DNA of 64,000 bases, taken from a phage. The notes under the pieces are model-generated. The model made no database searches. It saw only the letters and a list, made by a program, of their open reading frames with translations, and had not been told where the DNA came from. The translations under genes were made by a program, and so were the position numbers. The stretch lies in the NCBI GenBank assembly GCA_014685065.1, contig GCA_014685065.1_3930.1; one strand, 5' to 3'. Positions within the stretch are counted from its first letter, which is position 1; each line of letters starts with the position of its first letter. Shown here one piece after another: positions 43,663 to 60,788 of the stretch.

Positions 43663-44004
43663 TTAACTGATGAATATTTTTTCAGGTTTTACATAGCTGA
43701 TACGTTGGTTTTTTAGCAGGTCATCCCAGATTAACGCGGCGATATGGGCATAACCGGATTCACGTAAAAGCTTCATTGTTTTACTTCTCGTTTCAAAACG
43801 GCTTGCGTAGTACTCACTATTTAAAACCGTTTTATTCCCTTCGTTATCTACATGGATAATCTGCATCACTTGAAAGGGGCTTGTGTCCTCGCCTTTGTTC
43901 CACTGTTCAAAGTATTTTAGGCACTGCATAGGTGACATCTTATCACTTACTTGAGTTGACCAAGATGCGCCAGCTTTATCGGTAATTACGGTTACATAAG
44001 CCAT
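43663..44004 (-). CDS. hypothetical protein (early cluster)
   Basis: 113 aa; type-A cassette upstream; followed downstream by 160-bp spacer with tandem TTGACA boxes. Confidence 0.55.
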   Translation of the reverse strand: MAYVTVITDKAGASWSTQVSDKMSPMQCLKYFEQWNKGEDTSPFQVMQIIHVDNEGNKTVLNSEYYASRFETRSKTMKLLRESGYAHIAALIWDDLLKNQRISYVKPEKIFIS

Positions 44005-44100
44005 TTTTGAATCTCCTAGTTTAAGGACTTTATTTAGTGGGGAAGGTCATTCCCTCCCCGTTGATTGACAATTTACAGACTTTTATCAGGCTTGTCTAGT
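44005..44100 (-). promoter_or_regulatory. type-A cassette: promoter TAGACA-N17-TAAATT plus leader hairpin and SD
   Basis: Same conserved leader as other type-A copies. Confidence 0.5.
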
Positions 44101-44329
44101 CTTTTTCAATGATAATTTCATATTGACCGTCAACACTGTCGAAATAGATTCCGTCGTCATCTTCTGTCTTAAAGTAACATTGTATATCATCACTAGCGGG
44201 ATAGTCTTGTCTTGCTATCTGGCAAACTTGAATAGCATTTTCTTTACTTCCTGTAAACTCTTCAAGCCCTTTAAAATCGCATGAATGACCGTTACAAATA
44301 GAAAGGATGAGGTAAACGGTTGTAAGCAT
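44096..44329 (-). CDS. hypothetical small Cys-containing protein (early cluster)
   Basis: 77 aa; preceded by hairpin AGCCCCTTACAGGGGCT + UUUU and GGGAGG SD. Confidence 0.5.
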   Translation of the reverse strand: MLTTVYLILSICNGHSCDFKGLEEFTGSKENAIQVCQIARQDYPASDDIQCYFKTEDDDGIYFDSVDGQYEIIIEKD

Positions 44330-44339
44330 GATTTAAGCC

Positions 44340-44365
44340 TCCCAAAAGCCCCTGTAAGGGGCTAA
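44340..44365 (-). terminator. weak terminator/attenuator hairpin
   Basis: Minus-sense AGCCCCT-TACA-GGGGCT then UUUUGGGAGG (short U-tract). Confidence 0.35.
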
Positions 44366-44395
44366 ATAGTGTTTATAAGGTGATTGCATAGGTTT

Positions 44396-44938
44396 TTAGA
44401 AAAAGCTCTTTAAATCCTCTTCTGCGATGTTTCCTGTCAGTGTATCCATGATGTCACAAAAAACCTGAATATTGTCCGACTGTTGAACACTTTTAGCAAG
44501 TAGTTCTAATGTCTCATCAAGATAGTTCATATTTGGGTTATCCAGTGAAGGAAGACAAAAAGGCGAATACATAGCGTTAAACTCTGTTGTATAGACCTTT
44601 TTAATCCAGTTTACATCAAAGTACTCTGTAAAACTTGCTACACTCGACATATTATCACAAGAATAATCATCATTTAGCTCATCATCTGGAATATCGAGTT
44701 CTAAGATAACAATATTTTGGGTTTTCATCTGGAAGGCCGCCGTAATAGTGGCGTTCCCTAGAGCTTGCTGAATGCCCTCCGATGTTATCTCTTCATCATC
44801 GTCGCCATAGATTTTATTTTCTGGATACACGTAAAAATTGCCGTCCATATCCGAACAATTCCATGCGCCTGATGGTTTATCACCGTTATTAATCAGGTTG
44901 AGGAAATTTTCTTGAGTAGTTCCGTGATAACATTTCAT
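44396..44938 (-). CDS. hypothetical acidic protein (early cluster)
   Basis: 180 aa; type-B cassette upstream. Confidence 0.55.
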   Translation of the reverse strand: MKCYHGTTQENFLNLINNGDKPSGAWNCSDMDGNFYVYPENKIYGDDDEEITSEGIQQALGNATITAAFQMKTQNIVILELDIPDDELNDDYSCDNMSSVASFTEYFDVNWIKKVYTTEFNAMYSPFCLPSLDNPNMNYLDETLELLAKSVQQSDNIQVFCDIMDTLTGNIAEEDLKSFF

Positions 44939-45023
44939 TTTTGAATCTCCAGTTTAGGATTTAGTGGTAAAGCTCTTTATCTGAGGCTTAAGTTATCAAC
45001 TTTTAAGCCCCTTGTAAAGTACT
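44939..45023 (-). promoter_or_regulatory. type-B cassette: conserved palindrome + AGATAAAGAGCTTTACC box + SD
   Basis: GGGGCTTAA...TTAAGCC(T)C inverted repeat with variable loop, then conserved box and TGGAGATTC SD; TTTACA -35-like hexamer upstream. Confidence 0.45.
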
Positions 45024-45227
45024 TTATTTGTTATTTTTGACAACTTTTAAAACTGCAAGATAGCCTAAGCAATAAGAATCACCGAAGAGAGTCCTACCCA
45101 TGAAAGAATCCTCTTTGATATCCTTTGCAGTGACAGTTTTTTCTACGCCGTGGGAAAGGACTATATCACCAACTTTGATATCTTTGATGTGTGTAGTTTC
45201 AATGGTTAAACCATTAATAATATCCAT
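45024..45227 (-). CDS. hypothetical small protein (early cluster)
   Basis: 67 aa; type-A cassette upstream. Confidence 0.5.
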   Translation of the reverse strand: MDIINGLTIETTHIKDIKVGDIVLSHGVEKTVTAKDIKEDSFMGRTLFGDSYCLGYLAVLKVVKNNK

Positions 45228-45330
45228 TTTCAGAATCTCCAGTTTAGGACTTTATTTAGTGGGGGAGGTCATTCCCTCCCCGTTGATGTGTAATTTAGAC
45301 TATCTAAAAATCAGTGTCAACAAAAATTTT
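45228..45330 (-). promoter_or_regulatory. type-A cassette: consensus promoter TTGACA-N17-TAAATT plus leader hairpin and SD
   Basis: Exact TTGACA -35; leader hairpin GGGGAGGGAATGACCTCCCCC. Confidence 0.6.
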
Positions 45331-45735
45331 TTATAGTTCTGCATAAATTGCATCGCAGATATTACGGAAATCGTGATTTGCCAAATTACGCTGCAACCAA
45401 GTGGCGAAAAAGTCAGCGATTGCAAAGTTAGCATCATACTCGACAGATAACCACACTTTAACAGCAAATCGGAACATTTTCAAATCTAACTCTTTATTCA
45501 TTACCTTAGATTTGCCTAACATGTCGGCCATTTCATGTTGTGCACCGTCTAGCGTGATACCTGCTGCAACGTCAGTCAATGAGTTTTTTACGCTTTCAAC
45601 GTCTAAGATAACACTTTGAATCTTCCCAATAATGTTTTGCAGTGTTTCATCTGGTGCTGATGACGTGATAACATTAATCCGGTTAACGGTCAAACGTGCT
45701 TTTAAAATTGATAATTCACGGTTATTAATAGCCAT
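45331..45735 (-). CDS. hypothetical protein (early cluster)
   Basis: Start set at ATG (MAINN...) after SD TTGGAGAAC; ORF-track start is a TTG inside the SD. Confidence 0.5.
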   Translation of the reverse strand: MAINNRELSILKARLTVNRINVITSSAPDETLQNIIGKIQSVILDVESVKNSLTDVAAGITLDGAQHEMADMLGKSKVMNKELDLKMFRFAVKVWLSVEYDANFAIADFFATWLQRNLANHDFRNICDAIYAEL

Positions 45736-45821
45736 TTTTAAGTTCTCCAATTTAGGATTTAGTGGTAAAGCTCTTTATCTGGGGCTTACTTTATCGAACT
45801 ATAAGCCCCTTGTAAAGTACT
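45736..45821 (-). promoter_or_regulatory. type-B cassette
   Basis: GGGGCTTATAGTTCGATAAAGTAAGCCCC palindrome + AGATAAAGAGCTTTACC + SD. Confidence 0.45.
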
Positions 45822-46094
45822 TTACATTAAATGCAGTTTTTTGCCTTTTACTATAATGTAACTCGATGCGCTATTGCTTTGCAAATCTTGATAAATTCTG
45901 CGTAAACGTCCTTCGTAGTATACTTTCCAACTGGTTGGAATCTTTTTCCCGTATCCTGTAGCAGTTTTTTGGAGTCCTGCAACTTGCCAATTTAAGATGT
46001 GTTGCTCAGCCCGTAAATCTTCAAAGCACATCACACCGTCTACATAGTGACGCAAGGTGACATTTAAGGTGCGACCATTGTTAGTAGTGTACAT
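45822..46094 (-). CDS. hypothetical protein (early cluster)
   Basis: Start set at ATG (MYTTNNG...) after SD AGGAGC; track start is GTG overlapping upstream small ORF. Confidence 0.5.
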   Translation of the reverse strand: MYTTNNGRTLNVTLRHYVDGVMCFEDLRAEQHILNWQVAGLQKTATGYGKKIPTSWKVYYEGRLRRIYQDLQSNSASSYIIVKGKKLHLM

Positions 46095-46119
46095 TTTAAA
46101 AGCTCCTAGTTTAAGGGTT

Positions 46120-46278
46120 TTATTTTGACAGTTCACTAATTAAGACATCAAAGATTATATCATTATCTGCTACAGTTGCAACACCAGTGATATAATCAAT
46201 TTCTAGGATAACAACAACTTTCGTACATAAACCGTCATCTATATCATTCCAGACAACTTTATCACCTGCACAAAACAT
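46120..46278 (-). CDS. unlisted small ORF (~52 aa) with its own type-A cassette
   Basis: ATG preceded by TGGAGATTCTGAAA leader and full type-A promoter; below the 60-aa track cutoff. Confidence 0.45.
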   Translation of the reverse strand: MFCAGDKVVWNDIDDGLCTKVVVILEIDYITGVATVADNDIIFDVLISELSK

Positions 46279-46375
46279 TTTCAGAATCTCCAGTTTAGGA
46301 CTTTATTTAGTGGGGAAGGTCATTCCCTCCCCGTTGATGTGTAATTTAATCTATCTAAAAATCAGTGTCAACAGT
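46279..46375 (-). promoter_or_regulatory. type-A cassette: consensus promoter TTGACA-N17-TAAATT plus leader hairpin and SD
   Basis: Near-identical to cassette at 45228-45330. Confidence 0.6.
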
Positions 46376-46700
46376 TTTGTTTTCGTTTGCTCAATTCTTG
46401 AACAATTACAACGTAGTAGTCTTTTAAGTCACTGACATTTAAAGCATTTATCAGAGAATTATAATCATCAACTAACTGAAAATTATCTTTGAAGATGTCA
46501 CTTATCTGATAGGTTTTCGCTTTATATCTGAAGCTCATCTCTAGCCGCTTTATTTGCTCATCACTTAAACGCCCTAGAAAGCTTTCTACAAGGCTATTGC
46601 TAACCTGCTGGGTGGTTGCCTTATTTGCTAGATTATAGGCTTTATATGCCTTATATAGAGCGAAAATGGCAATGATTGCAGTGATACCAGTCATTAACAT
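46368..46700 (-). CDS. hypothetical membrane-anchored protein (early cluster)
   Basis: 110 aa; N-terminal hydrophobic helix. Confidence 0.5.
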   Translation of the reverse strand: MLMTGITAIIAIFALYKAYKAYNLANKATTQQVSNSLVESFLGRLSDEQIKRLEMSFRYKAKTYQISDIFKDNFQLVDDYNSLINALNVSDLKDYYVVIVQELSKRKQNC

Positions 46701-46990
46701 GGTGTTTCCTCTTTACGTGATACTTTGCCACTTACAGATATCTCATAAGATTCTAATAAATCGCTTTTAGACTTTACAGGACTTTTAAAAGTATCATCGT
46801 ATATATTAACTTGCAATACAGGTTTTTTATACTCCCTGCAACTATTCCATAAGCAAATTACTACACGACGGCCTTTTATTTTGCCATGTAACCATTCCAT
46901 AACATCATGACTATTTCTTGATGTCTCGATAAAATCAATTTTATTGAGTAATTTGCTAAGGTTTTCCCTAACTTTATTTGATAATTTCAT
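46694..46990 (-). CDS. hypothetical basic protein (early cluster)
   Basis: 98 aa; type-B cassette upstream. Confidence 0.5.
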   Translation of the reverse strand: MKLSNKVRENLSKLLNKIDFIETSRNSHDVMEWLHGKIKGRRVVICLWNSCREYKKPVLQVNIYDDTFKSPVKSKSDLLESYEISVSGKVSRKEETPC

Positions 46991-47081
46991 TTTTGAATCT
47001 CCTAGTTTAAGGGTTAATTTGATAAATCTCTTTATCTGGGGCTATCATATCCGCTTGTTAGCCCCGTGTAAAGAAATCTAT
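46991..47081 (-). promoter_or_regulatory. type-B cassette (variant)
   Basis: GGGGCTAACAAGCGGATATGATAGCCCC palindrome + AGATAAAGAGATTTATC + SD TAGGAGATTC. Confidence 0.4.
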
Positions 47082-47594
47082 TTAGTTCTTAAAGATATTC
47101 ATCACTGAATCTTTTAATGCTTCCAAGCGCTCTAATACTTCAGATTCTGCGTCTGCGTTGTTCACTTCCTCTTTTAGCCTGTCATCTAAATCATCGCCGT
47201 CACTGTAGCACCAATCGAAAGCGTAACCAATATAAAAACTTTCTAAAACAGTGCTGCCATTTGCATCTACAACTTTCGCGGCAATGTTATATTCTGAAGC
47301 CTCTAAATCTCTTTCTAGTTCTTTCTGTAAGCTGATGTAAGCCTCTTTTGATGGATTTGCCCGGCCTTGTTTTGCATAGTCACTTGAAAGCTGTTTAAGG
47401 CTGTAATGTAAAGGGATTGCATATTTAAATTCATTACGCTGACAGCTAGGATTTTTAATCGTCACACCGCCTTGATGGTCATCTGTAAATTCCCAATTAT
47501 CAAGATTATGGCTTGCTTCAAAGCAATTGACAGCTTCATAAATAATAGTGAATTTTTCTTTTACAACTTCAAAGGTAGCGTCTACAGTTTTCAT
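47082..47594 (-). CDS. hypothetical acidic protein (early cluster)
   Basis: 170 aa, Asp/Glu-rich C-terminus; type-B cassette upstream. Confidence 0.55.
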   Translation of the reverse strand: MKTVDATFEVVKEKFTIIYEAVNCFEASHNLDNWEFTDDHQGGVTIKNPSCQRNEFKYAIPLHYSLKQLSSDYAKQGRANPSKEAYISLQKELERDLEASEYNIAAKVVDANGSTVLESFYIGYAFDWCYSDGDDLDDRLKEEVNNADAESEVLERLEALKDSVMNIFKN

Positions 47595-47679
47595 TTTTGA
47601 ATCTCCAGTTTAGGATTGATTGGTAAAGCTCTTTATCTGGGGCTTAAGGTATCAGCTTTTAAGCCCCCTGTAAAGTACT
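47595..47679 (-). promoter_or_regulatory. type-B cassette
   Basis: GGGGGCTTAAAAGCTGATACCTTAAGCCCC palindrome + AGATAAAGAGCTTTACC + SD. Confidence 0.45.
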
Positions 47680-47973
47680 TTATTTGTTAATTTTCAGCTT
47701 TGCATAACTTCTCATTGTACGAATGGGGGATGTTAATGCTACGCGTCTAATGTATGCCTTTTTCGTGTATACATTTGTCTTCCCGATAGTGTTTACACAT
47801 GTAAAAAGGTTTATCGGTGAATTTTTTAACTTCAACTGTTTATCAACCTTCACGCCCCACCTTACAGCAGATTGTTTTCCATTGTCAACCACTTTCCCGC
47901 ATAACTTTTTAGCCATAACGCGAGCGTCATCACGAGTCTTTGCAGTAATTACAACGTTTTTGATAATAGCCAT
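47680..47973 (-). CDS. hypothetical basic protein (early cluster)
   Basis: Start set at ATG (MAIIKN...) after SD TTGGAGAAC; track start is a TTG inside the SD. Confidence 0.5.
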   Translation of the reverse strand: MAIIKNVVITAKTRDDARVMAKKLCGKVVDNGKQSAVRWGVKVDKQLKLKNSPINLFTCVNTIGKTNVYTKKAYIRRVALTSPIRTMRSYAKLKINK

Positions 47974-48058
47974 TTTTAAGTTCTCCAATTTAGGATTTAG
48001 TGGTAAAGCTCTTTATCTGGGCTTACTTTATCGAACTATAAGCCCCTTGTAAAGTTCT
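47974..48058 (-). promoter_or_regulatory. type-B cassette
   Basis: Near-identical to copy at 45736-45821. Confidence 0.45.
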
Positions 48059-48442
48059 TTATTTGTTAATTTTGAAGATAGTTACATAACCATCGCTGCC
48101 GATGATTTGTGATGCTCCAGCTTTTTCTACTTGATAGCCCATATTTTCAAGATGATAAACAGCATCATCATAACCATATGCGCCACCCTGATAACGTCTC
48201 TTATCGCATTTTATCAGGTTTTTACCACGTCCAGCAAGTGCATTCAGTACAGCTTTTTCACTTGATAGTGTGCCATCTAACATGGTTGCCGTGTAATGGT
48301 TGATTCTATTCCCGTTTACATCATACTTAAAATTGAATGCGTGAACAACGATAATGTTACCTTTAAAATTTTCATCAAGTGACTTCTCCAGTGCGTTGCG
48401 AAAGTTGTCTTTGTTGATGAATTTAGGTGCACGATATGCCAT
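48059..48442 (-). CDS. hypothetical protein (early cluster)
   Basis: 127 aa; type-B cassette upstream. Confidence 0.55.
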   Translation of the reverse strand: MAYRAPKFINKDNFRNALEKSLDENFKGNIIVVHAFNFKYDVNGNRINHYTATMLDGTLSSEKAVLNALAGRGKNLIKCDKRRYQGGAYGYDDAVYHLENMGYQVEKAGASQIIGSDGYVTIFKINK

Positions 48443-48532
48443 TTTTGAATCTCCTAGTTTAAGGGTTAATTTGGTAAAGCTCTTTATCTGGGGCTTACTT
48501 TATCGAACTATAAGCCCCATGTAAAGTACTTT
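48443..48532 (-). promoter_or_regulatory. type-B cassette
   Basis: GGGGCTTATAGTTCGATAAAGTAAGCCCC palindrome + AGATAAAGAGCTTTACC + SD TAGGAGATTC. Confidence 0.45.
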
Positions 48533-48754
48533 TTATTTATCGTAATAGTAAATCGCTGTTTGCCTTGTAAAATTCTTAGTATTTCTTGTAAGGTAGCAAT
48601 TAGAGTTTATAGCTGTTTCTACATAGTTGCAATAGTCAGCTTCTGATATTCTAGACCATACGCCACAAATTTGCATGTAAAAACGTTTTACCTTTGTGTT
48701 AACGTTAGTTGTAACCATCAATTCACGACTGTAAAGCATTATTTCGCGCTCCAT
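48533..48754 (-). CDS. hypothetical small protein (early cluster)
   Basis: 73 aa; overlaps upstream ORF by 16 nt; weak SD. Confidence 0.35.
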   Translation of the reverse strand: MEREIMLYSRELMVTTNVNTKVKRFYMQICGVWSRISEADYCNYVETAINSNCYLTRNTKNFTRQTAIYYYDK

Positions 48755-48927
48755 TTCTCAAAGAGTTCAGCAGGGAAACGTTCGCTATACCCTTTTAAGG
48801 AAAAAGTATTATCTTTGTGGATAGCTTCCACCTGATAAACCTTATAAGAGCGTATAGTTAGCATTTTGTAAGAGTATTCGTGCTTAATGTTAACCTCATC
48901 GCCAACTTTAATTTTTCTTGATGCCAT
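48739..48927 (-). CDS. hypothetical small protein, first gene of early cluster
   Basis: 62 aa; type-A cassette upstream. Confidence 0.5.
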   Translation of the reverse strand: MASRKIKVGDEVNIKHEYSYKMLTIRSYKVYQVEAIHKDNTFSLKGYSERFPAELFEKWSAK

Positions 48928-49035
48928 TTTTGAATCTCCAGTTTAGGATTTTATTTAGTGGGGAAGGTCATTCCCTCCCCGTTGATGTAAATATTAGATA
49001 ACCACGTTCAAAGAGTCAATAAAAATTTTAAAAAT
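48928..49035 (-). promoter_or_regulatory. type-A cassette: promoter TTGACT-N17-TAATAT plus leader hairpin and SD
   Basis: First cassette of the cluster; leader CAACGGGGAGGGAATGACCTTCCCC. Confidence 0.55.
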
Positions 49036-49129: not shown

Positions 49130-49400
49130 TCTTGACTTTTGGGGAGAGGGGGAGTAAGAGGGGGAGAGGGGTTGGGCTGGCTGTCTATAAAAACCTACCT
49201 GCACAATTCTAAAATGATTTTTCTTGCCCGACCTGAGCGGGGTCTGCACGTTTTGAAAATGAAAAAGCTCTTTGGAGATTACCTGCACAGTTTGAAAATG
49301 AATTTTCTCTTTGGAGTTCAAAATTTTCTCTATAGATTTCTCTACAGAACTCTACCTGCACAAATCTGAAATGAAAAAGCCCTCCTTACCTGAAAAATTT
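49130..49400. repeat. G-rich polypurine tract followed by four direct repeats of a ~22-bp box
   Basis: GGGGAGAGGGGGAGTAAGAGGGGGAGAGGGG at ~49142-49172; ACCTGCACA..T.TGAAAATGA-type box at ~49197, 49239, 49282, 49353. Confidence 0.5.
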
Positions 49401-49447
49401 ACCAGATAAGAAAGGCTTAGGCTATTGTGAATATCCTACAGAGTTTC

Positions 49448-50233
49448 TTAGTTCTTTGCGTCTAAGAAGGTAACTTCTGGTGAAGAGAAGATTGCCTCAA
49501 TACCCTCATCAGTTCTTGCATAGATATAAGCTTCTGCATCACTACCAAATGTTACAGCAATTCTGTGATTGCTCTTTGACAGGTGGGTAACTAGAGCGTT
49601 ACTTAGAGACATCTTTTCAACCGGAGGGTTACTTTGATGTGTCTTACCTTTTCTTCGTCTGAAGAGGGTAACTGCGTTATCTGTGAACACTGCTACACCT
49701 GCAAAGTATTCTGGTTCACAGTAGTTCTTCCAACCTGAGAGTAACTTGTGGTACATCTCTCCTTCATAGACATATAGATAAACATCTACACTCTTCATCA
49801 CCTGATTGATGATAACTGTGACGGCTTGAGGGTCAAGTCCACCGATACCTGCACCAATCATAGGTAAACCAACTTTCTTCAACTGATTAACTTCACAGTA
49901 TCTGTTAAGTTGCTTCAAAGACGACTCTAAAGCACTGTATCGGGCATCTTTACCAGTCTTAAGCTGAGTGTAAAGGTTAGCTATACGACCTTGTTTTAAG
50001 CGTGCTACAGAGAAATTACCTAGTAAATTCTCACAGGGTTTGTGACCTATACCACCTGCATAGAGATAAACTTCTGTATCGGTCTCATATGCTTTTGGGT
50101 AAAGTTTAGAAATCTTGTCAGCGATACCTGCACCCATTAGGTTCATGCAGTTACAACCATGACCAATGATGTCAAACTTACCTTTATCAAATGCAGCAAA
50201 GATATCACCATTGATGATTTTTACAATACCCAT
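49448..50233 (-). CDS. macro-domain protein (TARG1/DarG-like ADP-ribose hydrolase fold) with C-terminal extension
   Basis: 261 aa; N-terminal 150 aa has macro-domain signatures (IINGDIF, DIIGHGCNCMNLMGAGIA, LPMIGAGIGGLD) resembling TARG1-type macrodomains. Confidence 0.55.
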   Translation of the reverse strand: MGIVKIINGDIFAAFDKGKFDIIGHGCNCMNLMGAGIADKISKLYPKAYETDTEVYLYAGGIGHKPCENLLGNFSVARLKQGRIANLYTQLKTGKDARYSALESSLKQLNRYCEVNQLKKVGLPMIGAGIGGLDPQAVTVIINQVMKSVDVYLYVYEGEMYHKLLSGWKNYCEPEYFAGVAVFTDNAVTLFRRRKGKTHQSNPPVEKMSLSNALVTHLSKSNHRIAVTFGSDAEAYIYARTDEGIEAIFSSPEVTFLDAKN

Positions 50234-50434
50234 TTAGCATCTCTCCCAAGATTCTTTATCTTCTGAAGGTTTTACACGTTGCCCCTCATGGTCTACCCAG
50301 ATGCACCCACAACCTTCACAGATTACTGGCATTGCATAACCAGCTTTAAAATCATCTTCAGTGATAAGACCTTTTAAGTCACCTGTATCACGTCCGAACA
50401 TTTCGATAGAACAGTCTTTACAGAAGTCAGCCAT
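50234..50434 (-). CDS. small Cys-rich (zinc-binding-like) protein
   Basis: Start set at MADFCKDC... after SD AAGAGG; CxxC ... CEGCGC pattern. Confidence 0.4.
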   Translation of the reverse strand: MADFCKDCSIEMFGRDTGDLKGLITEDDFKAGYAMPVICEGCGCIWVDHEGQRVKPSEDKESWERC

Positions 50435-52261: not shown

Positions 52262-52957
52262 TCAATGTTTAACTAACATGGTTTTAATGTGTGGAAGGAT
52301 TCTGTTCACCTTCTGCACATTCTTCTCTGTGTCTTCTATAAAACATACTATATTAAAGTAAGGCAGGATGCAAGACTGAATCATCCTCACTTTCAAACTT
52401 TCTGCACTTATAGAGTTAGTTCCAAAACCACGCATAAAAAGCATGTAGTCATGCTCTATGTTATGCCTTAAAAACATCTCAGTAGGTATTCTCTGAGATT
52501 CACCTCTCGCTGTCAAGAGTCCAATGGCAGCATGATTAGCAATTGCATCAATAATACTAAAAACATACGTTGGTTTTGCTCTTACAGAGTCAAGAAGATT
52601 AGTGTACTGTGAGAATGACCCATCAGTCAATTCCGTTGAGCAATCTTCGTGATTAAAATTTGTAAGAACACCATCAATATCTGCTAAGATGAGGTTACCT
52701 TTTTCTACAAGGTCTTTATTGACTATGACTAAACTATCACGACTTACCCCTATAGCTTGCCCAGTCTCTTTATCTACAGCATTCACAATTGGCTCTGATG
52801 TGTGGAACTCTTCAAGTGAACATACAACTTCTCTTGCAGTGTCTTCAAAATCCCTACACTGTTCTGGAGTCCATACACAGGAATCAAGACCTAACTCATG
52901 AGGATGTAAGTCATAAGCATGACACAGTACTTCATCAGACTTTCTTAATTTTTTCAT
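52262..52957 (-). CDS. HAD-superfamily phosphatase-like protein
   Basis: 231 aa; motif ILADIDGVLTNF resembles HAD motif I (DxDG[VT]). Confidence 0.4.
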   Translation of the reverse strand: MKKLRKSDEVLCHAYDLHPHELGLDSCVWTPEQCRDFEDTAREVVCSLEEFHTSEPIVNAVDKETGQAIGVSRDSLVIVNKDLVEKGNLILADIDGVLTNFNHEDCSTELTDGSFSQYTNLLDSVRAKPTYVFSIIDAIANHAAIGLLTARGESQRIPTEMFLRHNIEHDYMLFMRGFGTNSISAESLKVRMIQSCILPYFNIVCFIEDTEKNVQKVNRILPHIKTMLVKH

Positions 52958-53483
52958 GATTTACCTTAGAAATGTTTGTTGCAAATTCACATTGAGCAAT
53001 TACTTTCATGTTGTTATAGACATCTTGAGAATACTTCTTAGCTTTAGGGATTCTGTACGAATACCCAGCATTATATGATGCTAAAACTTTTTGTAAAGTC
53101 TTCTTTGACTTTGGCTGACCATGCACCTTTGTCCAAAACTCAAGCTCTTTGTGAGTTTCCTTCGCAGCATAATCAAAGTCTCTTAAGAGTTTCTTTTTAG
53201 CCACATTAGGGCTAATTTTGTTACGCTTTACAACAGTCTTCAAGTGATTCTGGAAAATACCATAATCATGTGTCTTTTTATTCTCTACCTTCAGACCTAA
53301 CTCTGACTCTTGTAAGGCTATAGCAGCTAGAGTGATACCCCAACCTTTACCCATGTTGTTCTCACCATACTGGTAAGCTTTTAACATGTTTACTTTTTGG
53401 CTAATTGATAGCTCTGGGCAGTCAACTGCATAAGATAAGTGTGCTGTAAACATTAAGCACAAACCTAGAATCAATTTCTTCAT
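52935..53483 (-). CDS. secreted lytic transglycosylase-like (lysozyme-like fold) protein
   Basis: 182 aa; N-terminal signal peptide; catalytic-type ALQESELG and DYGIFQ motifs typical of SLT domains. Confidence 0.45.
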   Translation of the reverse strand: MKKLILGLCLMFTAHLSYAVDCPELSISQKVNMLKAYQYGENNMGKGWGITLAAIALQESELGLKVENKKTHDYGIFQNHLKTVVKRNKISPNVAKKKLLRDFDYAAKETHKELEFWTKVHGQPKSKKTLQKVLASYNAGYSYRIPKAKKYSQDVYNNMKVIAQCEFATNISKVNHEKIKKV

Positions 53484-58064: not shown

Positions 58065-59846
58065 TTAAAGCTGCTTGTCAATATTATTTCGAATATCACC
58101 AAGCGTTGTGTAACCGAACTGCTCAGAGTCACTAAAGACTAAACGTAAAGCACAAGCTGGGTGGTCAAGTGCATCTGCAAAACTCTGGAATCCATAGCCA
58201 TCTACAGCTTTCAGCTTATCACCATCCCACATAGGTGCTACACCACCAAAGGCAGATTTCTTAACACCACTATCTGTTTTAGGGTCTTTTGCAAGCATAA
58301 TCTCTTTACCACCAATGCTTGCAAGAGTTGCTTTGACAGCAAATGCAAAGGTGTCACGAGTCATGTACTGGTAAGTGTAAGAGCCTACACCAAACACTAC
58401 GTTAGAGCTTGCAAAACCCATTTCATACAGACGCTTCAGGATTTCGTTTGCACGTTCCAGCGTGATAGAGTCGCCATAGATAAGTCCGATATGCTCATCC
58501 AGTACCTTAAACCCTTTAGAGTTAATAGTTCCCCCAAAGATGCTGTACAGTGTCTTAATAGTTCCATCAATCTCCGCTACAGGGCGTGTTACAACGTTTG
58601 CAGAGCCAACCATATAAGCATTCTTCAACATCACTGTATCAGCAACTTCAAAGTCTTCTCTGTCAACAACCATTTCGTAGCCTTCTGACAGTAGCCATCC
58701 AGCAATACCATAGTTGACGTTTTCAAGCTTCATGTTCAGAACAGCATTCAACATTGTGTCACTGGCTTCCAGCTTGCTTAGGTGCTCGTAATAAGCCTTC
58801 TTAGCACATTCTAAGTGGATTGCTTTATAACCTGTGACAATATGTACAGGGTCTCCAGAGTCAGGACGAATTACCAGTTTACCGTCACGTTCCATAATTT
58901 CTTTACGAAGTGCTGGTAAGATTTCTGACACAGTTCTCCAGAAGTTATAAGTATCTGAAACAATACTTGCAATACCAGTTGGGTAAGTTTCTGTTAAGAA
59001 ACGACGGAAGGTTTGTAACTCACCTTTAAAGCGTCTTTCTTCTTCAATCAACTCATTACCACCTTCCCAAGCAATGTTTGCACACATTACAGAGTGCTCA
59101 GTGGCTGGTACAGAGCTACCAATATCAGAGATTGGGTAAGACTGTCCATAGATTCGTTTAGCCGTATACACAGCAGGGAAGCTATCAGTTCCTTTAAAGC
59201 TGGTTAAGTGACCTACAGCATTAAATGCGTCATCAGTAAAGCCGGACATACCACGCATAGCAAAGTCGTGGCACTGATAAGGTAAATGTAGGTCGTTGTC
59301 ACAAGTAAGGTCAGCCCACTTCTTACAGATGCGTTTGTAATGCAATGCAATAGTTGCAATGGTACAAGCTTTCCAAATCTCAGCAGAGAAAGCATCTTCC
59401 AGATAACCTGCTACCCAATGGAAACCTGAAACAGTGTTCTGGAAAACAATCATCGGAACACGCATAGGGACAACTGTGCCTTCTTCTACAGCGTATACTT
59501 CAACTGGTAGATAACCTAAGTCGTGAAGTGCTTCCCAATGCTCTCGACCGATAGCATCTTTGCCCAGAACACCATTCATGACTTCTAAGATTTCGTCAAT
59601 TGCTTCTTTTTTGTCACGTTCAAAGAACGTAGCATTCCAGTGGTCTATCAAGTAATCTTTAACGAAACGTTGAATACCAAAAGCTACTACACCATCAATT
59701 GCTAAGGGGCTGTTAAACCATTTGTCACTACGTGGTGTCAGGTTGAACATCAAGTACTCTGTTGCACTAGGGTACTGGTAAACATGACCAGATTTGTAAG
59801 CATCCGCGTTTAAACCTGCTGGTACTGCATAAAGTGATTTAGTCAT
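58065..59846 (-). CDS. nadV: nicotinamide phosphoribosyltransferase (NAMPT/NadV family)
   Basis: 593 aa; N-terminal DAYKSGH...YP motif and length typical of NAMPT; adjacent to PRPP synthetase. Confidence 0.7.
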   Translation of the reverse strand: MTKSLYAVPAGLNADAYKSGHVYQYPSATEYLMFNLTPRSDKWFNSPLAIDGVVAFGIQRFVKDYLIDHWNATFFERDKKEAIDEILEVMNGVLGKDAIGREHWEALHDLGYLPVEVYAVEEGTVVPMRVPMIVFQNTVSGFHWVAGYLEDAFSAEIWKACTIATIALHYKRICKKWADLTCDNDLHLPYQCHDFAMRGMSGFTDDAFNAVGHLTSFKGTDSFPAVYTAKRIYGQSYPISDIGSSVPATEHSVMCANIAWEGGNELIEEERRFKGELQTFRRFLTETYPTGIASIVSDTYNFWRTVSEILPALRKEIMERDGKLVIRPDSGDPVHIVTGYKAIHLECAKKAYYEHLSKLEASDTMLNAVLNMKLENVNYGIAGWLLSEGYEMVVDREDFEVADTVMLKNAYMVGSANVVTRPVAEIDGTIKTLYSIFGGTINSKGFKVLDEHIGLIYGDSITLERANEILKRLYEMGFASSNVVFGVGSYTYQYMTRDTFAFAVKATLASIGGKEIMLAKDPKTDSGVKKSAFGGVAPMWDGDKLKAVDGYGFQSFADALDHPACALRLVFSDSEQFGYTTLGDIRNNIDKQL

Positions 59847-59891: not shown

Positions 59892-60788
59892 TCAATCAAG
59901 GTTTGCTACAGTAACTTGACTGTAATGTGTTAAGCCACGTTCTTTAGCTTCGCCTAAAGAGTTTGTAGTGTAAATATGGTCGATACCATTGTCAAGAAGG
60001 TTTTCAACATCTTTAGAGAAGATACCATGTGTTACATAAAGCTCTACACGTTTTGCACCTGCTTCACGTAGGTGTTTAGCTGCCTCTACGAAGGTTCGAC
60101 CACCATCACAGATATCATCAAGAATCATGACGGTTTTATCGGTCAAATCAACATCGTCAAGGATTCGCATACCAGTGATTTCTCCAGTCTTAAGATTTCG
60201 CACCTTAGACATTGTGATATATGGTTTATCAACCTCTTTAGCAGTCTCTGCAATCTTCTTAGAAGCACCTGCATCTGGGGCTACTAAGTAATCAATCAGA
60301 GGGTCATTTGCGTAATGGACTGCAATCTCCTTTTGAGGAATACTCTGGAAGCAATTGAAAAGGTTATCTGGAACGTAACTATGAGGGTCAACTGCACAGA
60401 CTGCATCAAAACCCATTGCATTAACCTGTTGTGCAAACACTTTCAAAGCTGCTGCATCACCTTTAAACATGTGACGGTCGTAACGTGCATTTGGCAAATA
60501 GTAAAAGATAGCAGTCTTCATAGCAAACTTATGAGGTACTAAATCATCAATTGCCTCTTTAGCAAGTGCCACAGCAAATAATGTGTCTTTGTCATAACCC
60601 TTTATAATCATAATCACGTTGTTGATGGATGATGCAGCATAAGCAGTAAAATCAACAAACTCTGGTGAAAAATGTCCACCAATCTCACCAGAAGGAAATT
60701 GGACGATGTTAAACTCTTCTTCGTGAGTCCCTTTAGTTGGTGAATGAACTGTAACACGGATAGATGTTTTCATAGTTTTCTCTCTCAA
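59892..60788 (-). CDS. prs: ribose-phosphate pyrophosphokinase (PRPP synthetase)
   Basis: 298 aa; PRPP-binding motif ILDDICDGGRT and VAPDAGASKK loop aligned to Prs family. Confidence 0.7.
   Translation of the reverse strand: MREKTMKTSIRVTVHSPTKGTHEEEFNIVQFPSGEIGGHFSPEFVDFTAYAASSINNVIMIIKGYDKDTLFAVALAKEAIDDLVPHKFAMKTAIFYYLPNARYDRHMFKGDAAALKVFAQQVNAMGFDAVCAVDPHSYVPDNLFNCFQSIPQKEIAVHYANDPLIDYLVAPDAGASKKIAETAKEVDKPYITMSKVRNLKTGEITGMRILDDVDLTDKTVMILDDICDGGRTFVEAAKHLREAGAKRVELYVTHGIFSKDVENLLDNGIDHIYTTNSLGEAKERGLTHYSQVTVANLD

What the first reader, a model, noticed from the sequence alone, without database searches (positions are those of the whole stretch)
49448..50233. TARG1/DarG-like macro-domain protein: candidate counter-defence against ADP-ribosylation immunity
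The N-terminal 150 aa carries macro-domain signatures (DIIGHGCNCMNLMGAGIA and LPMIGAGIGGLD) that most resemble the TARG1/DarG antitoxin class of ADP-ribose hydrolases rather than the YmdB class. A phage-borne enzyme of this type could reverse DNA or protein ADP-ribosylation imposed by host systems such as DarTG. It carries an uncharacterised ~100-aa C-terminal extension.
Basis: partly seen in the sequence, partly recalled or inferred. Interest (0 to 1): 0.65.

Follow-up and report, generated by a model that had tools for sequence, protein, structure and literature searches.

The report
Phage DarG-like macrodomain, extra domain
This FelixO1-type phage gene encodes an ADP-ribose-removing enzyme related to the T4 protein (Tk.4/AdfM) recently shown to protect phage from the bacterial DarTG2 DNA-ADP-ribosylating defence, here fused to a small extra domain of unknown role found only in this phage lineage.

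Summary
A 261-aa ORF spans 49448-50233 on the minus strand. Residues 1-157 form a macro domain and carry both quoted motifs; residues ~168-261 form a real, folded, β-rich domain.

The window is a Felixounavirus. Sequence, profile and fold searches place the macro domain in the TARG1/DarG class, not the YmdB/MacroD class.

Its closest characterised relative is T4 Tk.4 (AdfM): 35% identity, E=3e-24, same PHROG 335. A 2025 preprint showed Tk.4 is required for T4 to resist DarTG2. PhiKZ gp104, also named AdfM, is a more distant relative shown to remove ADP-ribose from thymidine in DNA in vitro.

The catalytic Lys of TARG1/DarG is not conserved. An invariant Gln (Q90) sits there, as in T4 Tk.4 and in SCO6735, an active thymidine-ADPr DNA hydrolase whose equivalent Gln85 is essential. 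The DarG catalytic Asn (N28) and both phosphate-binding loops are invariant.

The C-terminal domain matches no Pfam family and no known fold. It occurs only fused to this macrodomain in syntenic loci of FelixO1-like phages, and it evolves about twice as fast as the macro domain.

The kind is now known; the two-domain form is a modest new variant.

The parts
49448..50233 (-). Complete ORF, 261 aa plus stop (ATG 50233-50231; TAA 49450-49448): two-domain macrodomain protein
   Evidence: PHROG 335 E=4e-112 over the full length; 99.7% DNA identity to Escherichia phage vB_EcoM_ASO1A gene ASO1A_011
49763..50233 (-). Macro domain, residues 1-157, TARG1/DarG (ALC1-like) class, T4 Tk.4/AdfM type
   Evidence: Pfam PF01661 above threshold; Foldseek TARG1 TM 0.85, DarG TM 0.81; BLASTP to T4 Tk.4 35% identity, E=3e-24 over residues 3-157; reciprocal tblastn of T4 Tk.4 hits only 50227-49763
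50150..50152 (-). Codon AAC = Asn28, equivalent of DarG catalytic Asn22 / PhiKZ AdfM Asn23; invariant in the family
   Evidence: Alignment to the DarG motif VNTVNC via P0026 and BLASTP to PhiKZ gp104, where N28 aligns with N23; invariant column; N22/N23 role from PMC13309987
50120..50137 (-). Phosphate-binding loop 1, M33-G-A-G-I-A38 (identical to TARG1 MGAGIA; DarG has MGKGIA)
49964..49966 (-). Codon CAG = Gln90 in the invariant NLYTQ motif; occupies the position of catalytic Lys84 (TARG1), Lys80 (DarG) and Lys78 (PhiKZ AdfM); same state as T4 Tk.4 and SCO6735 Gln85
   Evidence: phmmer and profile alignments to TARG1; P0026 alignment to DarG NFPTKKH; BLASTP to PhiKZ gp104; T4 Tk.4 NLYTQ; SCO6735 Q85 essential
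49832..49858 (-). Phosphate-binding loop 2, I126-GAGIGGLD134; matches DarG GVGNGGLD better than TARG1 GCGLDRL (TARG1 Asp125 aligns with Gly131)
49733..49762 (-). Linker helix, residues 158-167
   Evidence: DSSP on the AF2 model, H158-167
49451..49732 (-). Orphan C-terminal domain, residues 168-261: six β-strands plus one helix; lineage-restricted and fast-evolving; function unknown
49377..49418 (-). Intrinsic-terminator-like hairpin plus T-run, 30 nt after the stop codon; ends the transcription unit
   Evidence: annotated as a rho-independent terminator in ASO1A
50234..50434 (-). Abutting upstream 66-aa CxxC...CxxCxC ORF (PHROG 2210, unknown function). Its TAA is immediately followed by the macro ATG, so it is co-transcribed and probably translationally coupled; a functional link is not established
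   Evidence: a 63-aa CxxC...CxxC ORF also abuts the homolog in L006, but not in L005

Best explanation
The gene encodes an AdfM-type ('anti-DarT factor, macrodomain') counter-defence enzyme of a Felixounavirus.

Proposed mechanism. When a DarTG2-carrying host releases DarT2, the toxin ADP-ribosylates thymidines in single-stranded phage DNA and blocks replication or packaging. The N-terminal macrodomain binds the ADP-ribose through its two Gly-rich phosphate loops. It then hydrolyses the thymidine-ribose bond and restores unmodified DNA.

Catalysis probably follows the SCO6735-type route, in which a water molecule is activated and Gln90 positions the substrate together with Asn28. It probably does not use the Lys-dependent route of TARG1/DarG.

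The C-terminal ~95-aa domain is an accessory module specific to FelixO1-like phages. Its role is not determined.

What is shown: the fold, the class, homology to T4 Tk.4 and PhiKZ AdfM, conservation of active-site positions, and the restricted distribution of the C-terminal domain. What is inferred: substrate, catalytic activity, the target defence system and the role of the C-terminal domain.
For: Macro fold and TARG1/DarG class.

Homology to T4 Tk.4: 35% identity, E=3e-24, covering the whole macro domain and sharing HGCNC, G-x-G-[IV]-A, NLYTQ and IGAGIG. T4 Tk.4's only significant hit in the window is this ORF.

The query, T4 Tk.4 and PhiKZ gp104 all fall in PHROG 335.

Function of relatives: T4 tk.4 is the single Tn-seq hit on DarTG2 hosts, and a clean knockout is sensitised (10.1101/2025.11.20.689424). 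PhiKZ AdfM removes T-ADPr from an oligonucleotide in vitro and N23A is inactive (PMC13309987).

Gln at the Lys position is compatible with activity: SCO6735 cleaves dT-ADPr efficiently, and Q85A/E are dead (PMC9411070).

N28, Q90 and both loops are invariant across 19 homologs down to 32% identity, which indicates selection on the active site.

No darT gene and no annotated ART is present in the phage, so the target is most likely host-encoded.
Against: There is no experimental datum for this protein or for any Felixounavirus against DarTG.

35% identity does not fix substrate specificity. SCO6735 and TARG1 also act on protein-ADPr.

Enzymatic removal by T4 Tk.4 itself is inferred, not shown. 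The biochemically proven AdfM (PhiKZ) is K-type and only 23% identical to the query.

The N-terminal ~60 residues also resemble Poa1p, an ADP-ribose-1''-phosphate phosphatase, which is the source of the database label 'phosphatase'.

The query scores 47.5 bits against a cut-off of 250 for the DarG equivalog model. The C-terminal domain is unexplained.
Confidence: 0.6

Rival explanations
1. It is a general ADP-ribosylhydrolase whose relevant substrate is not DarT2-modified DNA. Candidates are ADP-ribosylated proteins or RNA produced by other host defence or toxin ARTs, or small metabolites (O-acetyl-ADP-ribose, ADP-ribose-1''-phosphate), as the inherited annotation 'phosphatase' implies.
For: TARG1 and SCO6735, the closest structural and mechanistic relatives, also hydrolyse protein-ADPr. 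Poa1p (Appr-1''-pase) matches the N-terminal 60 residues (E=6e-5) and the fold at TM 0.75. The HGCNC His25 is invariant. The phage carries NAD-salvage genes 8 kb upstream, so it invests in NAD/ADPR metabolism.
Against: The only phenotype known for the nearest characterised homolog (T4 Tk.4) is specific to DarTG2. T4, which has Tk.4, remains strongly restricted by the mRNA ADP-ribosyltransferase CmdTAC. The second half of the domain matches DarG/TARG1 and not Poa1p. The NAD-salvage genes are not adjacent. The polynucleotide kinase nearby does not generate Appr-1''-p.
Confidence: 0.2
2. It neutralises DarT (or another ART toxin) mainly by stoichiometric binding rather than catalysis, acting as an antitoxin mimic. 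The fast-evolving C-terminal domain would be the toxin-binding module, analogous to the DarT-binding C-terminal domain of DarG2 or to ICP1 AdfB.
For: DarG2 has a second, DarT2-interacting domain. ICP1 AdfB counters DarT through direct interaction. SCO6735 Q85A still inhibits DarT by interaction. The C-terminal domain evolves about twice as fast as the macro domain and has no conserved charge, a pattern typical of arms-race protein interfaces. It is always fused to the macrodomain.
Confidence: 0.12
3. It binds or degrades ADP-ribose-derived immune signals (for example Thoeris gcADPR or His-ADPR) or otherwise interferes with NAD-based immunity, rather than reversing a macromolecular modification.
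For: Macro domains can be receptors for His-ADPR, as in the type II Thoeris ThsA macro domain. The phage encodes NAD-salvage enzymes, which indicates pressure from NAD-targeting immunity.
Against: No homology to known anti-Thoeris proteins was found. The nearest relatives are hydrolases of DNA/protein-linked ADPr. PADLOC matched only DarG, not ThsA. The T4 homolog has a DarTG2 phenotype.
Confidence: 0.05

Closest known systems
T4 Tk.4 = AdfM (anti-DarT factor Macrodomain), Tequatrovirus; bioRxiv 10.1101/2025.11.20.689424
   Same: Single macro domain of the same sub-type: 35% identity, E=3e-24 over residues 3-157. It shares HGCNC, G-x-G-[IV]-A, NLYTQ (Gln at the catalytic-Lys position) and IGAGIG. 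It is in the same PHROG 335, lies in a run of small non-structural genes, and is phage-borne without a darT partner.
   Different: Tk.4 is 155 aa and lacks the ~95-aa C-terminal domain. The genomic neighbourhood differs (vs/tk region versus the rIIB-lysin-PNK region). The anti-DarTG2 phenotype is shown for Tk.4 and not for this protein.
PhiKZ gp104 = AdfM (chimallivirus DarG2-like antitoxin); Cell Rep 2026, PMC13309987
   Same: Phage-borne orphan DarG-like macrodomain in the same PHROG 335. The catalytic Asn is conserved (N23 / N28) and the GGLD loop is shared.
   Different: Only 23% identity (E=3e-4). It keeps the catalytic Lys (K78) where the query has Gln90. It is imported into the phage nucleus, is single-domain (162 aa), and has in vitro activity demonstrated.
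DarG2 antitoxin macrodomain (T. aquaticus 5M31/5M3E; M. tuberculosis 5M3I)
   Same: Same fold (TM 0.81). It is the only NCBIfam and PADLOC hit. The Asn22 equivalent and the G-x-G-x-GGLD loop are shared.
   Different: The score is far below the equivalog cut-off (47.5 vs 250 bits). Lys80 is replaced by Gln. There is no DarG-type C-terminal DarT-binding domain and no adjacent darT. It is a phage gene rather than a toxin-antitoxin operon.
SCO6735 (Streptomyces coelicolor ALC1-like macrodomain hydrolase, PDB 5E3B); PMC9411070
   Same: Gln at the position of the TARG1/DarG catalytic Lys. It is experimentally active on thymidine-linked ADPr-DNA and rescues cells from DarT. It provides the mechanistic precedent for a Q-type active site.
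   Different: Sequence similarity is very weak (E=0.51). It is a bacterial stress-response protein and has no C-terminal β-domain. I could not obtain a residue-level alignment to the query with these tools.
Human TARG1/OARD1 (4J5R/4J5S)
   Same: Best sequence and structure match among solved structures (E=4e-11 with profile; TM 0.85). Loop 1, MGAGIA, is identical.
   Different: The catalytic dyad Lys84/Asp125 is not conserved (Gln90/Gly131). It is a eukaryotic protein-ADPr hydrolase.
Yeast Poa1p (ADP-ribose-1''-phosphate phosphatase, 6LFQ-6LFU)
   Same: The N-terminal 60 residues match, including the H-x-C-N-C-type motif (E=6e-5). Fold TM is 0.75. It is the origin of the 'phosphatase' label in phage annotations.
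   Different: Only the first third aligns at sequence level. The remainder is closer to DarG/TARG1.

Membership tests
Macro domain superfamily (Pfam PF01661) | Profile match above the curated threshold | tested here: met
   32.3 bits vs gathering score 22, residues 25-141
Macro domain superfamily (Pfam PF01661) | Three-layer α/β/α macro fold | tested here: met
   AF2 model pLDDT 85; Foldseek probability 1.00, TM 0.85 to TARG1 and 0.81 to DarG
TARG1/DarG (ALC1-like) macrodomain class | Closest sequence and structure relatives are TARG1/DarG rather than MacroD/YmdB, PARG or macroH2A types | tested here: met
   PDB phmmer and profile top hits are TARG1, then DarG; Foldseek ranking; no YmdB-type NCBIfam hit for the query
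TARG1/DarG (ALC1-like) macrodomain class | Catalytic Lys (TARG1 K84 / DarG K80) | tested here: not met
   Gln90 aligns to it in four independent alignments. Q is invariant in the family. The same substitution occurs in T4 Tk.4 and in the active SCO6735.
TARG1/DarG (ALC1-like) macrodomain class | TARG1 Asp125 (dyad partner; already absent in DarG) | tested here: not met
   Gly131 aligns with D125. The loop is DarG-like, GxGxGGLD.
DarG type II antitoxin (NCBIfam NF048014) | Equivalog score cut-off | tested here: not met
   47.5 bits vs 250
DarG type II antitoxin (NCBIfam NF048014) | C-terminal DarT-binding domain | tested here: not met
DarG type II antitoxin (NCBIfam NF048014) | Adjacent darT toxin gene | tested here: not met
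   Neighbours are small phage ORFs of unknown PHROGs and a terminator. All upstream cistrons are 66-115 aa.
DarG type II antitoxin (NCBIfam NF048014) | Catalytic Asn22 | tested here: met
   N28 aligns and is invariant
Phage AdfM, T4 Tk.4 type | Significant full-domain homology to T4 Tk.4 with shared motifs; same phage protein family | tested here: met
   35% identity, E=3e-24; reciprocal hit; both in PHROG 335
Phage AdfM, T4 Tk.4 type | Required or sufficient for phage growth on DarTG2 hosts | not testable with these tools
   Needs phage genetics. No published data for Felixounavirus.
Phage AdfM, T4 Tk.4 type | Removes ADP-ribose from thymidine in ssDNA | not testable with these tools
   Shown only for PhiKZ AdfM, DarG, TARG1 and SCO6735
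Phage AdfM, T4 Tk.4 type | Single-domain architecture (~155-162 aa) | tested here: not met
   261 aa with an additional folded domain, residues 168-261
Poa1p-like Appr-1''-p phosphatase | Full-length homology to Poa1p | tested here: inconclusive
   Only profile positions 1-60 align (E=6e-5). Fold TM is 0.75, lower than for TARG1/DarG. Phosphatase activity is untestable here.
MacroD/YmdB O-acetyl-ADP-ribose deacetylase | Match to YmdB-type NCBIfam models | tested here: not met
   No such hit for the query at E<=1. Distant homologs give only weak hits (E 5e-3 to 2e-5, far below cut-offs).

The most novel reading that the evidence does not exclude
The lineage-restricted, fast-evolving C-terminal β-domain is a second, independent neutralisation module. 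It would bind DarT2 (or another ART toxin), or dock the enzyme onto the phage replication or ssDNA machinery. FelixO1-like phages would then have convergently rebuilt a two-module 'DarG-like' antitoxin (hydrolase plus binder) from an unrelated fold. Its rapid divergence would track host toxin variants.
Probability: 0.15. Interest if true: 0.6.

Novelty: new variant of a known kind. Interest (0 to 1): 0.35.

Why it matters
If correct, the recently discovered AdfM counter-defence extends from T-even and nucleus-forming jumbo phages to the Ounavirinae. FelixO1-type phages are widely used for Salmonella/E. coli typing and therapy, so this helps predict their host range on DarTG2-carrying strains.

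It also gives a natural two-domain version of the enzyme. Its orphan domain could reveal how such hydrolases are targeted or how they engage the toxin.

The invariant Gln at the canonical catalytic-Lys position, shared with genetically validated T4 AdfM, supports a Lys-independent mechanism for thymidine de-ADP-ribosylation. That mechanism has so far been proposed only for SCO6735.

The database label 'phosphatase' used for hundreds of these phage genes is probably misleading.

Tried and rejected
(1) P0026 (339 aa, macro plus a second domain) was tested as a possible true DarG. It scored only 35 bits against a cut-off of 250, so it is not DarG. Its alignment to 5M3I/5M31 was still useful for motif mapping.

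(2) tblastn of the macro domain against plasmids, to find annotated DarG, returned only generic 'macro domain-containing protein' hits.

(3) The HMM search with the C-terminal domain gave long multi-stretch hits (P0033, P0034, P0037-39). These are PQQ/BNR β-propeller or other repetitive proteins matched in many short pieces, so I rejected them as spurious. P0032 and P0036 are fragments of the same fusion family, not standalone domains.

(5) Literature searches for Felixounavirus or Ounavirinae with DarTG found no experimental data. One hit no longer contained the terms.

(6) The idea that the protein reverses a phage-encoded ART was rejected for lack of support. No ART is annotated in a complete Felixounavirus genome, although many ORFs there are hypothetical.

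(7) Anti-CmdTAC (mRNA ADPr) is unlikely by analogy, because T4 with Tk.4 is still restricted by CmdTAC.

(8) A conserved electrostatic ssDNA-binding role for the C-terminal domain is not supported. Its pI ranges from 4.6 to 9.6 among homologs, and the RRRKGK hairpin is confined to close relatives.

(9) Conservation of the abutting Zn-ribbon-like ORF was inconclusive. A CxxC...CxxC ORF abuts the homolog in L006 but not in L005, and the alignment is poor.

(10) MAFFT mis-registered the PhiKZ motif by one column in A4. I relied on the BLASTP and HMM alignments instead.

Full report
**Observation.** The coordinates 49448-50233 delimit one ATG-to-TAA ORF of 261 aa on the minus strand. The plus-strand reading is full of stops. 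Both quoted motifs are present: DIIGHGCNCMNLMGAGIA at residues 21-38 and LPMIGAGIGGLD at residues 123-134.

Pfam Macro (PF01661) matches residues 25-141 at 32.3 bits, above the gathering score of 22. PHROG 335 ('phosphatase') matches the full length at E=4e-112.

**What the window is.** The 1.8-kb region is 99.7% identical to Escherichia phage vB_EcoM_ASO1A. It matches 242 phage records, nearly all Felixounavirus from E. coli, Salmonella or Shigella.

By tblastn, 257 records carry a protein covering at least 80% of the query. About 2,500 further records share only the N-terminal ~155 residues at roughly 30-35% identity, among them the Tk.4 gene of T4-like phages.

**Class of the macro domain.** Several searches agree.

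- Against solved structures, the best sequence hits are human TARG1 (E=1e-5; 4e-11 with a family profile), then the M. tuberculosis and T. aquaticus DarG macrodomains, then Poa1p, which aligns over the first 60 residues only.
- The only NCBIfam hit is the DarG equivalog model, far below its cut-off (47.5 vs 250 bits) and restricted to model positions 4-151 of 338.
- The only PADLOC hit is DarG at 47.6 bits, higher than T4 Tk.4 scores (36 bits).
- An AlphaFold2 model built on 19 homologs is confident (pLDDT 85, pTM 0.85).
- Foldseek ranks TARG1 (TM 0.85) and DarG (TM 0.81) ahead of Poa1p (0.75) and the viral Mac1-type domains. All matches cover only about 155-180 columns.
- No YmdB/MacroD model matched the query.

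**Active site.** Four independent alignments place Gln90 at the catalytic Lys of TARG1 (K84), DarG (K80) and PhiKZ AdfM (K78). These are phmmer to TARG1, the profile to TARG1, a family member to DarG 5M3I/5M31, and BLASTP to PhiKZ gp104. Gln90 lies in the invariant motif NLYTQ.

TARG1 Asp125 aligns with Gly131. The second loop, GAGIGGLD, resembles DarG GVGNGGLD rather than TARG1 GCGLDRL. Asn28 corresponds to the DarG catalytic Asn22 / PhiKZ Asn23.

H25, G26, N28, the MGAG motif, NLYTQ and P124…GAGI-G-LD are invariant across 19 homologs down to 32% identity.

The missing Lys does not argue against activity. SCO6735 belongs to the same macrodomain class, has Gln85 at this position and efficiently cleaves thymidine-linked ADPr-DNA. 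It loses all activity in Q85A/E, and a water-mediated mechanism has been proposed for it (PMC9411070).

**Closest characterised relatives.** T4 Tk.4 (AF158101 60922-61389, 155 aa) is 35% identical over residues 3-157 (E=3e-24). It has HGCNC, NLYTQ and IGAGIG, and a Tequatrovirus ortholog gives the same result. T4 Tk.4's only significant hit in the window is this ORF.

A November 2025 preprint found tk.4 as the single transposon-sequencing hit on a DarTG2 host and showed that a clean knockout is sensitised. The authors named it AdfM; enzymatic removal was inferred there, not shown.

Independently, Morgan et al. (Cell Rep 2026) named PhiKZ gp104 AdfM. They showed in vitro de-ADP-ribosylation of a T-ADPr oligonucleotide (N23A inactive) and multi-log sensitisation of deletion mutants to DarTG2.

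PhiKZ gp104 retains the Lys and is only 23% identical to the query (E=3e-4). All three proteins fall in PHROG 335. The query therefore belongs to the Q-type (T4-like) branch of phage DarG-like macrodomains.

**C-terminal domain.** Residues ~168-261 follow a linker helix (158-167). The prediction shows six β-strands and one helix, both in the full-length model and when modelled alone (pLDDT 79, pTM 0.74). Searches for relatives gave the following.

- No Pfam hit, even at E≤10, and only PHROG 335 in PHROGs.
- In BFVD, a match only to the orthologous protein of phage SUSP2.
- A profile search of 1.84 billion representative proteins returned 11 hits. The genuine ones are all macro-fusions or fragments of them; the rest are β-propeller or other repetitive proteins matched piecemeal.

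Distant two-domain homologs (33-36% identity) lie in syntenic loci: rIIB, methyltransferase, lysin, PNK-like gene, small ORFs, then the macro gene. The fusion is therefore a lineage trait of FelixO1-like phages.

The domain evolves about twice as fast as the macro domain (mean pairwise identity 30% vs 58%). It has no conserved net charge, with pI from 4.6 to 9.6. That argues against a conserved electrostatic DNA-binding role and is compatible with a protein-interaction surface. Its function remains unknown.

**Genomic context.** The gene is the last cistron of a minus-strand run. The run consists of an Rz-like spanin, four small ORFs of unknown PHROGs, and a 66-aa CxxC…CxxCxC ORF whose TAA directly abuts the macro ATG. 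A terminator-like hairpin at 49418-49377 follows.

There is no darT, and no ADP-ribosyltransferase is annotated anywhere in a complete Felixounavirus genome. NAPRT/NAMPT-like and PRPP-synthetase genes lie about 8 kb upstream.

**Mechanism and rivals.** The best explanation (confidence about 0.6) is an AdfM-type enzyme that removes DarT2-installed ADP-ribose from thymidines in phage ssDNA, using a Gln/Asn, Lys-independent active site.

The rivals are:

- a broader or different ADPr substrate, or the 'phosphatase' role (0.2);
- stoichiometric toxin binding through the C-terminal domain (0.12);
- interference with ADPR-derived signals (0.05).

T4, which has Tk.4, is still restricted by the mRNA ADP-ribosyltransferase CmdTAC, which weakens the RNA-substrate version of the first rival. 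No published experiment addresses Felixounavirus and DarTG.

**Novelty and verdict.** The kind, a phage macrodomain anti-DarT factor, has been known since 2025-2026. The gene family is already in databases as 'macro domain-containing protein' or 'putative phosphatase'.

Two points are new here. The Felixounavirus protein is assigned to the Q-type AdfM branch. And it carries a lineage-restricted orphan C-terminal domain.

I rate it a new variant of a known kind, interest 0.35.

Noticed in passing
window 49197-49374 (+ strand coordinates; intergenic, downstream of the macro gene): There are four direct copies of a 21-nt motif, ACCTGCACANTTNNAAAATGA, at 49197, 49242, 49281 and 49354. Chance expectation is 0.17, and none occurs elsewhere in the 64-kb window. 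They sit between the macro-gene terminator and the next promoter. They could be a regulator-binding array or a phage-specific promoter cluster.
   Followed up: partly
window ~49140-49180 (minus-strand read): A C-rich tract (ccagcccaacccctctccccctcttactccccctctcccc) lies in an otherwise AT-rich intergenic region. It is unexplained.
   Followed up: no
window 44003-49021 (copies at 44003, 45225, 46276, 48924; a second family at 44933, 45731, 47589, 47969, 48440): Repeated intergenic cassettes of ~100 nt precede many of the neighbouring small genes. Each holds a sigma70-like promoter, a GGGGAGGGAATGACCTTCCCC hairpin and a Shine-Dalgarno/ATG. They are reminiscent of the promoter-stem-loop cassettes of hyperplastic regions in T4-like phages. 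They also explain the repeated 'ESPSLRVNL..LFIWG' pseudo-ORFs on the + strand.
   Followed up: partly
window 50234-50434 (-): A 66-aa CxxC...CxxCxC (zinc-ribbon-like) ORF, PHROG 2210 of unknown function, has a stop codon that abuts the macro-gene ATG (TAAATG). A 63-aa CxxC...CxxC ORF likewise abuts the distant homolog in L006 (5810-6001), but not in L005.
   Followed up: partly
window 58065-59846 (-) and 59892-60788 (-): These are NAD-salvage genes. One is a 593-aa NAPRTase/NAMPT-family phosphoribosyltransferase and the other a 298-aa PRPP-synthetase-like protein (Pfam). Related genomes also annotate a small 'NAD synthetase protein'. This may be a NARP2-like NAD+ reconstitution pathway against NAD-depleting immunity.
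   Followed up: partly
window 52262-52957 (-): The ORF annotated elsewhere as polynucleotide kinase (PNK/HAD-PNKP-like in homologous loci) gave no Pfam hit at E<=0.001 here. The 'putative lysin' at 52935-53483 gave none either.
   Followed up: no
P0008 (179 aa, 91% identity, 65% coverage): A truncated allele or fragment of the macro protein exists in public data; it covers only ~65% of the query, and which end is missing was not checked. I did not determine whether it is a real truncation or an assembly fragment.
   Followed up: no
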